This document shows positions 42,437-45,517 of a stretch of DNA of 64,000 nt, piece by piece. The notes under the pieces are model-generated. The model was not told where the DNA came from and made no database searches. It worked only from the letters and a program-made list of their open reading frames with translations. A program made the position numbers and the translations under genes. Source of the stretch: the human T2T-CHM13v2.0 reference genome, Homo sapiens; assembly GCF_009914755.1 (NCBI RefSeq), contig NC_060941.1; one strand, given 5' to 3'. How positions within the stretch are numbered: position 1 is the stretch's first letter; every line of letters begins with the position of its first letter.

Positions 42437-43196
42437 ATGGAGAAGGTGGAGTCCCTAGGGGCTGCTGGCGGCCTCAACCGGGATTCCCCTGGAGGGGCAG
42501 CCAGAGGAGTGCCCGCAGCGGTCACAGGAGTCGAGGCAGGCGCTGGGCAGCCCTCCAGAGTAGTCTTGTTTCACGGTTCTGGGCCCCACGTGCACTCAGG
42601 GGGCTCCGTAACTCATAGTACTGGTTCAAGCTGTCCCTCCGGGGGGATAGTGGTCCTTGGTTCCGGGCCCAGTCAGCACCCAAGGGAGGCTGCGAACCAC
42701 AGCCTTGGGTCTGGCAGGAACCCTGGTGGATTCAACATCCCCGGGCCTCGAACCAGTGTATCCAGGGCTTCCAGCCCCGGGCCTGGGGGACCTGCAGGGC
42801 AAGAGGTAAACAGCCCCGGGTGCAGTCCGCACTCTGGGCCAACTTGCTTGAACCCCCAAAACTCCCAAAAGGACCGGCCCCGGAGCATCCTACGAAAGAA
42901 CAGCTCCAACTTGATGCAGAAATCCCCCAATGTGGAGAAGTAAGGAGCCCAGCTCTGCGGGCAGCCAGCCCAGAGTCGGGAGGGTTCAGGACACCTGAGG
43001 GTGGGAGCCAGAAGGAAAGGGGCAGAGCCTTAAGAATGAAGAGTTAGAGTAGGTGAGGGCAATTGAGTGGGAAGTCCGAGGTTCCAGGCTTTCGGGAGAA
43101 GAGCAGGTGCCCCATAAACCGTGGCTGCACAGGACTGTGATTATCATTAAGTCTGACCCCATCCCCAGCCTCAACAAGGTATAAGAAACCTGTTTT

Positions 43197-43840
43197 GAGT
43201 CGGAGTGGTGACTCATGCCTGTAATCCTAGCACTTTGGGAGGCCGAGGTGGGCAGATCACCTGAGGTCAGGAGTTCGAGACCAGCCCGGCCAACATGGTG
43301 AAACCCTGTCCCTACTAAAAATACAAAAATAAGCCGGGTGTGGTGGCAGGCACCTGTAATCCCAGCTACTTGGGAGGCTAAGGCAGGAGAATGGCTTGAA
43401 CCGGGGAGGCAGAGGTTGCAATGAGCTGAGATCACACCATTGCACTCCAGTCTGGAAAACAGAGCAAGACTCCATCTCAAAAAACAAACAAACAACAACA
43501 AAAACTGTTTTGAATGCCACGCAGGGTAGCTCATGCCTGTAATCCCAGCACTTTGGGAGTGCGAGGCAGGCAGATCACGAGGTCAGGAGTTCAAGACCAG
43601 CCTGACCAACATGGTGAAACCCCATCTCTACTAAAAATACAAAAATTAGCCAGGTGTGGTGGCGCACGCCTGTAATCCCAGCTACTCAGGAGGCTGAGGC
43701 AGGAGAATCACTTGAACCCGGGAGGCAGAGGTTGCCGTGAGCTGTGATCGTGCCACTGCACTCCAGCTTGGTCAACAGAGCCAAGATTCCATCTCAAAAC
43801 AAAAACAAAAGCAAAAAACAAAAACAAAAACAAAAAAAAC
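43197..43840 (+). mobile_element. Two tandem Alus inserted at one site
   Basis: Repeated flank aaa(c)ctgttttga at about 43186, 43502 and 43838. Confidence 0.9.
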
Positions 43841-44554
43841 CTGTTTTGAATGACTGGGAAAATGAGGGAGGCCTATGGGGGGGTCATTAGAAGGTCTCCT
43901 CCCCCAGCCCCAGAAGGAAGTCTCAGCACTGGGACGAGATGAATATCCTGGCCACCTACCGCCCTGCTGACAAGGACTATGGATTTATGATGGTGGATGA
44001 GCCCAACACTCCCTACCACAGGTGCTGAGCCCTCAGCCCCAACCCTTCAGTCCAGAGATTCTTCTCTATTTAAAGGAGGGGACAGGTGGAGGAGGCAGAG
44101 CGCCTCAGGGACTGGATACTGCCTGACACCCACCTCCCGGCACTGCTTCCCCCTCCTCTGCAGGCTGCAGGACAGTTTTGAGGACCTCTCTGCCGGCTCC
44201 TCCTGCTCAGTGAATCCTGGAGTGCTGGCAGAGAGGTAAGAGTCCTGCCAGAGATCAGCCGGGTTATGGGGCCTCTTCCTTCCCTCAGCCCTGAATTCAG
44301 GTCTGCAGCGGGTCTGCTTTCTGACACCTGCAGTGGGAGGTGCTACAATTTCCATCAGGCCTGGATGGGGGCAGGGGTCCGCCAATTTGGCCTCGTTTAC
44401 CACCTGTCCCCATTGCTATTTTCTTCTCTTGATGCCCCCAACTAGTCTCCTGCCCCTTCAGGATTGCCATGATGGACAGTATCTGCCCCAGGTTCCGCCA
44501 GGACTGTGCTGACAGGAGCTCAGGGCCTGCAGACAACTTTTCCAAGATACATGA

Positions 44555-45517
44555 TGTAGGGTCCAGCCCTATGGGGCTTAGCGGGTGTTCCCCACCGTGT
44601 GCAGAGACGAGAGATTGTAATAAATTAAGACACAAGACAAAGAGATAAAGAGAAAGCAGCTGGGCCTGGGGGATGACTACCAAGACGCGGAGACCGGTAG
44701 TGGCCCTGAACCACTGGTTGCGCTGATATTTATTGCATACAAGACAAGGGGGCAGGGTAAGGAGGGTGAATCTTCTAAGTGATTGACAAGGTGCAGCAAG
44801 TCACGTGATCACAGGACAGGGGGCCCTTCCCTTTTAGGTAGCCGAAGTAGAGAGAGAAGGCAGCATACGTCAGCGTTTTCTTCTATGCACTGATAAGAAA
44901 GATCAAAGACATTAAGACTTTCACTATTTCTTCTACTGCTCTCTACTACGAATTTCAAAGAGGAACCAGGAGTACGGGAGGAACATGAAAGTGGACAAGG
45001 AGCGTGAGCATTGAAGCACAGCACCACAGGGAGGGGTTTAGGCCTCCGGATGACTGCGGGGAGGCCTGGATAATATCCAGCCTTCCACAAGAAGCTGGTG
45101 GAGCAGAGTGTTCCCTGACTCCTCCAAGGAAAGGAGACTCCCTTTCGCGATCTGCTAAGTAACGGGTGTCTTCCCAGGCACTAGCGTTACCGCTTGACCA
45201 AGGAGCCCTCAAGCGGCCCTTATGCGAGCGTGACAGAAGGTTCACCTCTTGCCTTCTAGGTCACTTCTCACAATGTCCCTTCAGCACCTGACCCTATACC
45301 CGCCGGTTATTCCTAGGTTATATTAGTAATGCAACAAACAGTAATATTAAAAGCTAATGATTAATAATGTCTATAATAATGATTGATAATTGTCCATGAT
45401 CATCTCTATATCTAATTTGTATTATGACTATTCTTATTCTAACTATTTCTTTATTATACTGAAACAGTTTGTGCCTTCAGTCTCTTACCTTGGCACCTAG
45501 GTAATCTTTCGCCCACA
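44555..45517 (-). mobile_element. Solo ERVK-class LTR, LTR13/LTR13A type (963 bp)
   Basis: TG...CA termini (- strand TGTGGGCGAAAGATTACCTAGGTGCC...GGCTGGACCCTACA) match the recalled LTR13 consensus. Perfect 6-bp TSD ACATGA at 44549-44554 and 45518-45523. LTR poly(A) signal on - strand at 44729-44734. Confidence 0.9.

What the first reader, a model, noticed from the sequence alone, without database searches (positions are those of the whole stretch)
42437..44648. Possible surviving chimeric product: 289-aa PP1-docking protein ending inside the LTR
Seen: exons 1-4 have no stop or frameshift, while every lesion I found lies at or after the exon-4 donor. With that donor dead, the frame runs into the antisense LTR (…FSKI-HDVGSSPMGLSGCSPPCAETRDCNKLRHKTKR, TAA at 44646-44648). 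Length is 503+108+72+187 = 870 nt, or 289 aa. A sense-strand AATAAA lies at 44619-44624, so the LTR could supply the terminal exon end and avoid NMD, although cleavage would fall very close to the stop. Inference: such a protein would keep SILR, KSQHW and PNTP but lack the HYxx helix that blocks the PP1 active site. It might act as a PP1-binding decoy or competitor rather than an inhibitor. The intact 5' half could also be chance.
Basis: inference. Interest (0 to 1): 0.75.

Follow-up and report, generated by a model that had tools for sequence, protein, structure and literature searches.

The report
Broken PP1-inhibitor gene relic with LTR
This is the decaying human remnant of a PP1-inhibitor-like gene that many other mammals keep intact, and the 289-residue frame running into a retroviral LTR exists on paper but shows no sign of being a preserved protein.

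Summary
Exons 42437-42939, 43914-44021, 44164-44235 and 44462-44648 splice on canonical sites into an 870-nt, 289-aa frame. It ends at TAA 44646-48, with AATAAA at 44619.

The locus is an intron-containing, single-copy member of the IPP-2 (inhibitor-2) family. Intact orthologues of roughly 400-550 aa exist in whales, pig, cattle, bats, xenarthrans and a lemur.

The human copy is a unitary pseudogene:
- The exon-4 donor reads AT, not GT.
- A 963-bp antisense solo LTR with a 6-bp duplication sits 4 nt into intron 4.
- Exon 6 and exon 8 carry frameshifts, and exon 7 carries a stop.

Exons 1-4 look no better conserved than the broken exons. Human differs at 10 of 62 invariant columns in exons 1-4 and at 4 of 29 in exons 5-6. 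Human and chimpanzee differ by 4 residues in 227 codons. Chimpanzee gene models end in intron 3, not in the LTR. No real database protein carries the LTR tail.

Open-frame survival by chance is 1-17%. That is somewhat low but not compelling. A maintained chimeric protein is unlikely (about 5%).

The parts
42437..42939 (+). Exon 1 (503 nt). It holds the ATG, a Gly/Ser/Pro-rich N-terminal extension, and SILR at 42884-95.
   Evidence: Orthologues align over the whole exon. Pfam finds no family in it. It is single copy in the genome.
43914..44021 (+). Exon 2 (108 nt), the IPP-2 core: KSQHW docking motif through PNTPYH.
   Evidence: Pfam IPP-2 at 4e-16, 60.3 bits. PDB 2o8a_I residues 42-78 at E=4e-17. 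A second in-frame acceptor 6 nt upstream (43908) is used in the chimpanzee models.
44164..44235 (+). Exon 3 (72 nt). Reading through its donor gives AGG TAA, so retaining intron 3 ends the frame at 228 aa.
   Evidence: Chimpanzee models P0019 and P0029 end exactly at ...VLAER.
44462..44550 (+). Ancestral exon 4 (89 nt, ends in phase 1).
   Evidence: tblastn of orthologues. Joining it to exon 5 gives ...[15 protein letters not shown] in frame.
44551..44552 (+). Dead exon-4 donor: AT where GT is expected.
   Evidence: The cattle-like read-through record P0011 reads ...SKTREMRGG, where the human pre-insertion sequence reads ...SKIHEMRVV. R (CGT) against H (CAT) fits C|GTGAG changing to C|ATGAG. 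This is inferred from protein, not from orthologous DNA.
44549..44554 (.). Left copy of the 6-bp target-site duplication, ACATGA.
44555..45517 (-). Solo LTR, 963 bp, TG...CA ends, antisense to the gene.
   Evidence: 39 other scored copies at 89-96% identity out of 609 first-look candidates. Flanks of the closest copies are unrelated apart from Alu-like repeats. On the minus strand, AATAAA at LTR position 784 and TAAAAG at 682 fit a U3-R-U5 layout (the orientation is inferred).
45518..45523 (.). Right copy of the target-site duplication, ACATGA.
   Evidence: Both copies carry the A of the dead donor.
44551..44648 (+). Read-through tail: 4 nt of intron plus 94 nt of LTR. It encodes the last two bases of the H codon, then DVGSSPMGLSGCSPPCAETRDCNKLRHKTKR, then TAA at 44646-48.
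   Evidence: A 1-nt insertion near 44594 is private to this LTR copy (0 of 7 other copies) and sets the tail's frame.
44619..44624 (+). AATAAA on the gene's strand, 21 nt before the stop.
   Evidence: It is a family feature of the LTR's antisense strand, present in 7 of the 8 copies compared.
45616..45873 (+). Exon 5 (258 nt), lesion-free. It holds the HYDK helix motif at 45648-59. Its donor is GTTAGC.
   Evidence: Pfam IPP-2 profile positions 97-128 of 130, 25.7 bits against a cut-off of 25. Single copy.
46627..46787 (+). Exon 6 (161 nt) with a net 1-nt loss in or next to the C-run at 46651-56. The ancestral frame then stops at TGA about 46731.
46876..47013 (+). Exon 7 with TAG at 46893-95, where orthologues have W. 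The expected donor position reads G|TTGAGG, inferred to be a second dead donor.
47269..47404 (+). Exon 8 with a net 13-nt (3n+1) loss near 47316-24, relative to the 7 records that cover ...WCQWLV...
   Evidence: The length is inferred from the protein alignment.
47562..47681 (+). Last exon. ...QWKM is followed by GGG where orthologues stop. The frame runs on to TGA 47657-59, and AATAAA lies at 47676-81.

Best explanation
The stretch 42437-47681 is a unitary pseudogene. It is the human relic of an intron-containing, N-terminally extended paralogue of protein phosphatase inhibitor-2 that lies just upstream of ACAP1 and is still intact in many placental mammals.

The likely order of events on the human lineage:
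- The exon-4 donor changed from GT to AT, probably a CpG transition.
- An ERV solo LTR then inserted 4 nt into intron 4, in antisense orientation.
- Exons 6, 7 and 8 picked up two frameshifts and a stop.

The 289-aa frame is what is left when exons 1-4 are read past the dead donor. Its last 32 residues are arbitrary antisense-LTR sequence. Without the LTR the same read-through would simply have ended 5 codons later (...SKIHEMRVVD*).

The open state of exons 1-4 is best explained by three things: GC-rich sequence that rarely mutates to stops, moderate time since inactivation, and chance. It does not look like selection for a truncated PP1-docking protein.

Shown: the anatomy, family membership, lesions, intact orthologues, and equal decay of conserved residues.
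Inferred: the order of events, the ages, and the absence of a stable product.
For: Family: Pfam IPP-2 on exon 2 (60.3 bits) and exon 5 (25.7 bits); PDB 2o8a_I at E=4e-17.

Intact orthologues: 18 proteins at E<=0.01. They include Balaenoptera 514 aa, Sus 506 aa, Delphinapterus 509 aa, Tamandua 501 aa and Prolemur 394 aa, plus Pteropus models fused to ACAP1.

Single copy in the genome. It is distinct from PPP1R2 and its retrocopies.

Lesions: dead donor and LTR with its target-site duplication; exon-6 frameshift, exon-7 TAG, exon-8 frameshift.

Relaxed constraint in exons 1-4:
- Human differs at 10 of 62 columns invariant in 10 non-anthropoid orthologues, against 4 of 29 in exons 5-6 (Fisher p=1.0). 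Overall that is 15%, against 1-11% in leave-one-out controls.
- Human identity to P0001 is 77.1, 78.9 and 78.9% in exon 1, exons 2-4 and exon 5. Four of five intact pairs show exons 2-4 8-16 points above exon 1; the Tamandua-Choloepus pair shows 3.6 points.
- There are 4 human-chimpanzee replacements in 227 codons. Neutral evolution predicts 6.3. An omega of 0.2 gives P=0.04.
- P0020 and P0028 carry exon-1 frameshifts.

No sign of the product: chimpanzee LOC107969131 models end at the intron-3 stop. The only protein with the tail, P0030, reads TGA as W through intron sequence.

Both duplication copies read ACATGA, so the donor mutation most simply predates the LTR.
Against: Chance survival of the exon 1-4 frame, with its start and 12 splice-site bases, is only 17%, 4.7% and 1.3% at 2%, 3.5% and 5% neutral divergence. 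This uses an indel-to-substitution ratio of 0.08 (ratio taken).

All 3 frame-breaking lesions fall in the last 491 of 1521 coding nt. That gives P=0.034, but the partition was chosen after seeing the data. It is 0.12 for 'outside exons 1-4'.

NCBI predicts coding models at the chimpanzee locus, in a cluster of 8 member sequences. This hints at transcription there.

The start context, the two GC boxes upstream and all six splice sites of exons 1-4 remain good.

A dead 5' splice site next to a hexamer is the kind of setting in which intronic polyadenylation can be unmasked (recalled general knowledge, not tested).

No RNA, ribosome, proteome, population or other-primate DNA data could be consulted.
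Confidence: 0.8

Rival explanations
1. The locus is still transcribed. With the exon-4 donor dead, transcripts run on and are polyadenylated at the LTR's antisense AATAAA. This yields a stable 289-aa protein that docks on PP1 through SILR and KSQHW but cannot block the active site, so it acts as a decoy or competitor and is kept by selection.
For: The frame, splice sites, hexamer and stop exist as described. The docking motifs are present and the HY motif is excluded. Survival of the frame by chance is 1-17%. The lesions cluster downstream. Chimpanzee coding models exist at the locus.
Against: - Conserved residues decay as fast in exons 1-4 as downstream.
- Divergence is flat across the exons.
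- Invariant core residues are replaced in human and chimpanzee.
- Other primate-like records have exon-1 frameshifts.
- Chimpanzee models end in intron 3 and lack exon 4 and the tail.
- No genuine database protein carries the tail.
- The hexamer ends 21 nt before the stop, so the usual cleavage zone straddles the stop. The 60 nt after it are purine-rich with no evident U/GU-rich element (by reading).
- The tail's frame depends on a private 1-nt insertion in this LTR copy.
- RefSeq lists no gene here in the table supplied with the finding.
Confidence: 0.05
2. The relic is transcribed at a low level, for example from the GC-rich region shared with NEURL4, but it yields only non-functional or short-lived RNAs. 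The candidates are the intron-3-retained form seen in the chimpanzee models (228 aa in human), exon-4 skipping (stop after residue 232, with downstream junctions, so an NMD target), or long unspliced read-through. Any peptide made is noise.
For: Chimpanzee models X2 and X4 both end at the intron-3 stop. The same AGG TAA is present in human. Joining exon 3 to exon 5 gives ...AERLHRL*. CpG observed/expected is 0.45-0.53 over exon 1, next to a strong island at 40900-41900.
Against: The human exon-3 donor (GAG|GTAAGA) and the exon-4 acceptor look strong, so intron-3 retention is not predicted from the sequence. The supplied human RefSeq table shows no transcript. No expression data were available.
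Confidence: 0.12
3. Partial exonisation of the LTR. A cryptic donor inside the LTR at 44617 (ATT|GTAATA) is in phase 1. It would rejoin exon 5 in frame, inserting 22 LTR-derived residues but keeping the HYDK helix. The product would then end in the frameshifted exon 6.
For: Of 7 GT dinucleotides between 44540 and 44660, 3 are in phase 1 (44587, 44599, 44617). The one at 44617 has GTAA at +1 to +4. Exon 5 is lesion-free.
Against: All three sites lack G at -1 and G at +5 and are poor matches to the donor consensus (by reading; no splice-site scorer was available). The invariant E of the HY-x-E motif is K in human. Exon 6 is frameshifted. Nothing supports use of these sites.
Confidence: 0.02

Closest known systems
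PPP1R2 (protein phosphatase inhibitor-2; PDB 2O8A/2O8G chain I)
   Same: Same Pfam family, IPP-2 (PF04979). The exon-2 peptide aligns to chain residues 42-78, with [29 protein letters not shown] shared. It is 81% identical to the chr3 hit in the genome. A second IPP-2 segment with the HY motif lies downstream.
   Different: This is a separate locus with its own introns. It has a 167-aa N-terminal extension that Pfam does not recognise, and its orthologues are roughly 400-550 aa. The human copy is broken. phmmer against PDB did not recover inhibitor-2 with exon 5 or with the SILR region.
Processed PPP1R2 pseudogenes PPP1R2P1-P10 (Korrodi-Gregorio et al. 2013, PMC3840573; passages read)
   Same: They are human relics of the inhibitor-2 family, some with long open frames, for which residual function has been argued.
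   Different: The paper states that all ten are intronless processed copies of PPP1R2. 'Chromosome 17' and '17p' occur 0 times in its text. The present locus keeps introns, has its own orthologues and has no working copy elsewhere.
Intact mammalian orthologues, all named 'uncharacterized' or 'inhibitor 2(-like)' by their sources (e.g. Balaenoptera musculus LOC118887425, Sus scrofa A0A8D1VL77, Prolemur simus A0A8C9A455)
   Same: Exon-for-exon collinear with the human relic. Identity to human exon 1 is 49-63% (76% for the unnamed record P0001). The DRPRSILK and exon-2 cores are invariant. Pteropus models fuse it to ACAP1, which matches the human gene order.
   Different: They have open frames through exons 5-9. 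There is no LTR tail.
Chimpanzee LOC107969131 isoforms X2 (230 aa) and X4 (118 aa), NCBI predictions
   Same: 98% identical over exon 1. Same exons 1-3.
   Different: They end at ...VLAER, the intron-3 read-through stop. They do not include exon 4 or LTR sequence, and they use an acceptor 6 nt upstream for exon 2.
Intronic ERV/LTR insertions that truncate host transcripts by splicing or polyadenylation (van de Lagemaat, Medstrand and Mager 2006, PMC1794541; abstract and passages read)
   Same: An LTR inside a gene offers a poly(A) hexamer to the host transcript.
   Different: That paper's disruptive cases are mainly sense-oriented. It reports no splicing into antisense HERV9 or HERV-K(HML-2) elements. 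Here the LTR is antisense, the hexamer is incidental, and the host gene was probably already dead.

Membership tests
IPP-2 / inhibitor-2 family (PF04979) | Pfam IPP-2 match above the gathering score | tested here: met
   Exon-2 ORF: 60.3 bits against 25, profile positions 1-33. ORF 45543-45878: 25.7 bits against 25, profile positions 97-128.
IPP-2 / inhibitor-2 family (PF04979) | RVxF-type docking segment (KSQKW...ATYHPADKDYG in inhibitor-2) | tested here: met
   Aligned to 2o8a_I residues 42-78 at E=4e-17. Human has KSQHW. H to R in ATYHPA and K to M in FMKVDEP are changes at otherwise conserved columns.
IPP-2 / inhibitor-2 family (PF04979) | SILK-type motif near the N-terminus (consensus [GS]IL[RK], recalled) | tested here: inconclusive
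   SILR is present at 42884-95, and DRPRSILK is invariant in 10 orthologues. No tool aligned this region to inhibitor-2.
IPP-2 / inhibitor-2 family (PF04979) | Inhibitory helix with the HY motif in the same polypeptide | tested here: not met
   HYDK (45648-59) lies in exon 5, beyond the dead donor and the LTR. Neither read-through nor exon skipping joins it in frame. So the 289-aa frame would not be a complete family member.
Unitary pseudogene | Intact orthologue in other species at the same place | tested here: met
   Intact models in at least 10 non-anthropoid mammals. Position is supported only indirectly, by the Pteropus ACAP1 fusion models.
Unitary pseudogene | Disabling lesions in the species in question | tested here: met
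   Dead exon-4 donor, exon-6 frameshift, exon-7 TAG, exon-8 frameshift.
Unitary pseudogene | No functional copy of the same gene elsewhere in the genome | tested here: met
   Exon 1 and exon 5 each hit only this locus. The other exon-2 hits are PPP1R2 and its retrocopies, at 50-81% identity.
Unitary pseudogene | Loss of selective constraint | tested here: inconclusive
   Protein-level signs point to relaxation. dN/dS needs orthologous primate DNA, which was not available. Frame survival of 1-17% is somewhat low for a fully neutral sequence.
ERV solo LTR (class II / ERVK-like) | TG...CA ends, target-site duplication, dispersed near-full-length copies, no internal provirus attached | tested here: met
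   TGTAGG...CCCACA, 963 bp, ACATGA on both sides. 39 other scored copies of 609 candidates cover about positions 3-965. The flanks are the host intron.
ERV solo LTR (class II / ERVK-like) | Named repeat family (Dfam/Repbase) | not testable with these tools
   No repeat library was available. The ERVK-like assignment rests on the 6-bp duplication and a recalled likeness of the LTR ends to HERV-K LTRs. It is a lead only.
Composite terminal exon by intronic polyadenylation | Hexamer plus downstream U/GU-rich element | tested here: inconclusive
   AATAAA 44619-24 is present. The next 60 nt or so are purine-rich with no clear U/GU-rich run (by eye; no poly(A) predictor was available).
Composite terminal exon by intronic polyadenylation | Observed transcript 3' ends | not testable with these tools

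The most novel reading that the evidence does not exclude
In hominoids the dead donor and the antisense LTR hexamer together turned a dying inhibitor-2 paralogue into a shortened gene. Its exon 1-4 product, with the LTR tail or with the intron-3 stop seen in the chimpanzee models, still docks on PP1 without inhibiting it. It has been kept open by selection, for instance in testis.
Probability: 0.05. Interest if true: 0.7.

Novelty: new member of a known kind. Interest (0 to 1): 0.3.

Why it matters
If the chimeric protein were real, it would be a rare case of a retroviral LTR rescuing part of a dying gene as a new PP1 regulator. PP1 specificity is set almost entirely by such docking proteins. 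The evidence points the other way, so the finding itself is ordinary: a pseudogene frame with an arbitrary tail.

The solid by-product is modest but useful. Humans carry an unannotated unitary pseudogene of an inhibitor-2 paralogue of roughly 400-550 aa. That paralogue is intact in whales, pig, cattle, bats, xenarthrans and a lemur. I found it described nowhere in the library searched. This flags an unstudied PP1 regulator in other mammals and a gene loss in anthropoid primates.

Tried and rejected
- I searched for any database protein with the exon-4/LTR tail. There were 3 candidates and 1 hit, P0030. It is a 330-aa frame that reads TGA as W through intron 1 to exon 4, so it is an artefact and not an annotation.
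- phmmer of exon 5 and of the SILR region against PDB gave no inhibitor-2 hit: two chance-level hits at E=0.61 and 1.3, and none, respectively. The HY-helix assignment therefore rests on Pfam alone.
- Segmental duplication as the source of the 96.5% sibling LTR on the same chromosome is rejected. Only the LTR and Alu-like repeats match.
- An AT-AC reading of intron 4 is rejected by hand. Ending the intron at ...AC would put exon 5 out of frame.
- Tandem Repeats Finder found nothing in the upstream region.
- Paper searches for the locus found nothing relevant: NEURL4/ACAP1/pseudogene/inhibitor 2; 'unitary pseudogene' + 'phosphatase inhibitor 2'; PPP1R2 + NEURL4; 'phosphatase inhibitor 2-like' (listings only).
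- I did not fold or dock the product. A spliced sequence cannot be handed to those tools, and PP1 was not available as a partner.
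Full report
**1. The observation**

I read 41300-48600 and rebuilt the proposed frame from the window.
- The exons are 42437-42939, 43914-44021, 44164-44235 and 44462-44648. They sum to 870 nt and give 289 aa plus TAA at 44646-48.
- The three donors are gtaagg, gtgctg and gtaaga. The three acceptors are pyrimidine tracts ending in cag.
- The ATG lies in GCCATGG, with an in-frame stop 21 nt upstream.
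- AATAAA at 44619-24 is the only plus-strand AATAAA between 44401 and 45600.
- Motif positions: SILR 42884-95, KSQHW 43918-32, PNTPYH 44002-19. HYDK is at 45648-59, beyond the LTR.

**2. What the gene is**

- The exon-2 peptide matches Pfam IPP-2 (PF04979) at 60.3 bits against a cut-off of 25. The ORF 45543-45878 matches the C-terminal end of the same profile (positions 97-128 of 130) at 25.7 bits. Exon 1 matches no family.
- The exon-2 peptide aligns to residues 42-78 of inhibitor-2 in PDB 2o8a chain I at E=4e-17.
- In the window's own genome the exon-2 peptide finds 10 places. These are this locus, a chr3 hit at 81% with a short open frame, and eight more at 50-78%, seven of them in long open frames. 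From general knowledge these are PPP1R2 and its retrocopies.
- Exon 1 and exon 5 each find only this locus.

A search of 5.8 billion proteins with exon 1 found 18 longer proteins at E<=0.01. All carry PF04979.
- Two Pteropus models are labelled ACAP1 isoforms (1185 aa). They fuse the IPP-2 domain to the ACAP1 domains.
- The rest are 'uncharacterized' or 'inhibitor 2(-like)' proteins of 303-550 aa, plus the unnamed 430-aa record P0001. They come from Ailuropoda, Tamandua, Diceros, Choloepus, two Balaenoptera species, Delphinapterus, two Molossus species, Miniopterus, Bos, Sus and Prolemur, plus two unnamed records.

So this is a distinct paralogue with a 167-aa N-terminal extension, lying next to ACAP1.

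The 2013 survey of PPP1R2 pseudogenes (PMC3840573, passages read) reports ten human copies, all intronless. It never mentions chromosome 17. Four further searches found nothing on this locus.

**3. The exon-4 donor and the LTR**

tblastn of five orthologues onto the window places the ancestral end of exon 4 at 44550, in phase 1. It places exon 5 at 45616-45873. Joining them gives ...[21 protein letters not shown]..., collinear with the orthologues.

The donor position reads AT (44551-52). A cattle-like read-through record (P0011) reads ...SKTREMRGG where the human sequence with the LTR removed reads ...SKIHEMRVVD*. R (CGT) against H (CAT) fits a change from C|GTGAG to C|ATGAG at a CpG. This is inferred from protein, not from orthologous DNA.

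The repeat runs from 44555 to 45517. It is 963 bp, from TGTAGG to CCCACA, flanked by ACATGA on both sides.
- It has 39 other scored copies at 89-96% identity, from 609 first-look candidates.
- The closest copies, 96.5% and 94.1%, are on the same chromosome but share only the LTR and Alu-like repeats with this locus. They are separate insertions.
- On the minus strand, AATAAA lies at LTR position 784 and a TATA-like TAAAAG at 682.
- A 6-bp duplication suggests a class II, ERVK-like element (recalled rule). I could not name the family.

Both duplication copies carry the A of the dead donor. The simplest reading is that the donor was already AT when the LTR landed. Two parallel CpG changes to the same base are possible but less likely.

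The 3.5% difference from the closest sibling caps this copy's own post-insertion divergence at about 3.5%. It would be about 1.8% if the difference is shared equally.

**4. Downstream lesions**

- Exon 5 is clean.
- Exon 6 (46627-46787, 161 nt) has lost one base in or beside the C-run at 46651-56. The ancestral frame then stops about 46731.
- Exon 7 has TAG at 46893-95, where the orthologues have W. Its expected donor reads G|TTGAGG.
- Exon 8 has a net 13-nt loss near 47316-24, relative to the seven records that cover ...WCQWLV....
- The terminal stop is GGG in human.

**5. Is the 5' half under constraint?**

I aligned a human conceptual protein, with X at the breaks, to P0001 and to 10 non-anthropoid orthologues.

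*Invariant columns.* At columns invariant in the 10 orthologues, with at least 8 residues present, human differs at 10 of 62 in exons 1-4 and at 4 of 29 in exons 5-6 (Fisher p=1.0). With an 80% threshold the figures are 30 of 145 and 20 of 82 (p=0.51). Leaving out each intact orthologue in turn gives 1-11%. Human is at 15% and P0001 at 19%. Eight of the 14 human changes are shared with P0001, so they predate the split of those two lineages. The changes include H to R in ATYHPA, K to R in SILK, and E to K in the HY-x-E motif.

*Pairwise identities.*

| Pair | Exon 1 | Exons 2-4 | Exon 5 |
|---|---|---|---|
| Human - P0001 | 77.1% | 78.9% | 78.9% |
| Whale - pig | 77.5% | 85.6% | 73.8% |
| Molossus - Miniopterus | 75.0% | 90.0% | 85.7% |
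| Whale - cattle | 72.4% | 88.6% | 70.2% |
| Pig - cattle | 73.3% | 85.2% | 58.3% |
| Tamandua - Choloepus | 74.2% | 77.8% | 70.2% |

Most intact pairs keep exons 2-4 well above exon 1. Tamandua-Choloepus is an exception that weakens this contrast. Human-P0001 is flat.

*Human against chimpanzee.* The two differ at 4 residues in 227 codons, including A to T in the chimpanzee NILATY. There are 512.7 non-synonymous sites. With a recalled genome-wide divergence of 1.23%, neutrality predicts 6.3 differences, and P(4 or fewer) is 0.25. An omega of 0.2 predicts 1.26, and P(4 or more) is 0.04.

*Other primate-like records.* Two unnamed records close to human (about 77-80% identity) show frame changes inside exon 1 relative to human and to all other mammals. 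One change is near 42485 in both records. A second is near 42709-24 in P0028.

Together these point to relaxed constraint over exons 1-4 in anthropoids. They rest on proteins only.

**6. Could the open frame be chance?**

I simulated neutral decay of the 772-nt exon 1-4 frame, with its start codon and 12 splice-site bases. The settings were a transition bias of 2, an 8-fold CpG transition rate, and 85% of indels frame-breaking.

The indel-to-substitution ratio of 0.08 comes from the seven LTR pairs (32 gap openings to 394 mismatches).

| Neutral divergence | 2% | 3.5% | 5% |
|---|---|---|---|
| Exons 1-4 intact | 17% | 4.7% | 1.3% |
| Exons 1-5 intact | 9% | 2% | 0.2% |

All three frame-breaking lesions fall in the last 491 of 1521 coding nt (P=0.034). 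For 'outside exons 1-4' the figure is 0.12. Both partitions were chosen after seeing the data.

So survival of the frame is somewhat unlikely but not striking. It is most comfortable if inactivation was not much older than the LTR. I list this as the main evidence against my reading.

**7. Fate of a transcript**

- Retaining intron 3 stops the frame at 228 aa.
- Skipping exon 4 gives ...AERLHRL*, with junctions downstream.
- The GT created at the LTR edge (44556) is out of phase with exon 5.
- A weak GT at 44617 is in phase with exon 5.
- Without the LTR, read-through would have ended at ...SKIHEMRVVD*. The LTR therefore swapped one arbitrary tail for another.

The hexamer is a property of the LTR family's antisense strand. 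It is present in 7 of the 8 copies compared. This copy also has a private 1-nt insertion near 44594 that fixes the tail's frame.

The hexamer ends 21 nt before the stop, so the usual cleavage zone straddles the stop. The following 60 nt or so are purine-rich (by eye).

Chimpanzee models LOC107969131 X2 (230 aa) and X4 (118 aa) both end at the intron-3 stop. They do not reach exon 4.

The one database protein with the tail (P0030) reads TGA as W through intron sequence and is an artefact.

The RefSeq table supplied with the finding lists no gene here.

**8. Comparison with what is known**

The locus works like, and belongs to, the inhibitor-2 family by domain and docking motif. The 289-aa frame fails the family's inhibitory-helix feature.

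It differs from the described PPP1R2 pseudogenes in being a unitary loss with introns. Host-transcript disruption by intronic ERVs is well described, mainly for sense-oriented elements (PMC1794541, abstract and passages). Here the LTR is antisense and probably landed in a gene that was already dead.

**9. Verdict**

- The best explanation is a unitary pseudogene whose 5' frame survives by composition, limited time and chance (0.8).
- A maintained chimeric PP1-docking protein is possible but unlikely (about 0.05).
- Not seen here: any RNA, ribosome, proteome or population data; any other primate DNA; and the other seven members of the chimpanzee protein cluster.

Noticed in passing
window 41329-41708: The 11-mer GCTTTACGGCA occurs three times exactly (41403, 41494, 41698). 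Two 2-mismatch variants lie at 41329 and 41634. All five are on the + strand, in the CpG-rich stretch between the NEURL4 start and the relic. The window-wide count at 2 mismatches is not above chance (10 against 13 expected), and Tandem Repeats Finder finds no array. It looks like a loose local repeat or a repeated binding motif.
   Followed up: partly
L002 (G000:C17:6991996-6992961) and L003 (G000:C17:6947420-6948381): The two closest relatives of the window's LTR (96.5% and 94.1%) lie 245 kb and 289 kb away on the same chromosome, in the same orientation. The other 37 scored copies are at 89-93%. Their flanks do not match the window's apart from Alu-like repeats, so they are separate insertions, perhaps of a younger subfamily.
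   Followed up: partly
proteins P0002, P0003 (Pteropus, 1185 aa): NCBI models labelled ACAP1 isoforms X4 and X5 carry the whole IPP-2 paralogue fused in front of the ACAP1 domains. They are probably read-through or merged gene models. They are useful as evidence that the paralogue sits just upstream of ACAP1 in bats too.
   Followed up: no
protein P0004 (Ailuropoda, 410 aa): The panda model lacks most of exon 4. It has five changes in the otherwise conserved exon-2 core (ILATCHPAGQDYGFTEVDEP). The gene may be decaying in that lineage as well.
   Followed up: no
protein P0030; window about 43650-44648: The protein database holds a 330-aa 'protein' that is this window's plus strand read straight through intron 1 to exon 4, with TGA taken as W. 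It is an artefact of a gene caller that used a non-standard code on primate DNA.
   Followed up: yes
window 44617: A GT inside the LTR (ATT|GTAATA, overlapping the AATAAA) is in phase 1. It would join exon 5 in frame, adding 22 LTR-derived residues. It is a weak match to the donor consensus, and nothing supports its use.
   Followed up: partly
window 40900-42900: CpG observed/expected is 0.77-0.96 over 40900-41900, the island at the NEURL4 start. It is 0.45-0.53 at 64-69% G+C over 42100-42900, the relic's upstream region and exon 1. It then falls to 0.06-0.3 downstream. Two GGGGCGGGG boxes lie at 42360-42385, just before the ATG.
   Followed up: partly
window 43205-43500, 43520-43830, 46120-46420, 47900-48195: Alu-like repeats, recognised by eye: two in tandem in intron 1, one in intron 5, and one between the relic's 3' end and ACAP1. 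The first two account for most of intron 1's length.
   Followed up: no
window 47334-47747 and 46999-47541: The 3' part of the relic is read in different frames by different orthologue models. The cattle P0012 tail matches the human frame of ORF 47334-47747. The lemur tail matches 47515-47617, with a human TGA at about 47538. This suggests alternative 3' exons in the living gene. I did not resolve them.
   Followed up: partly
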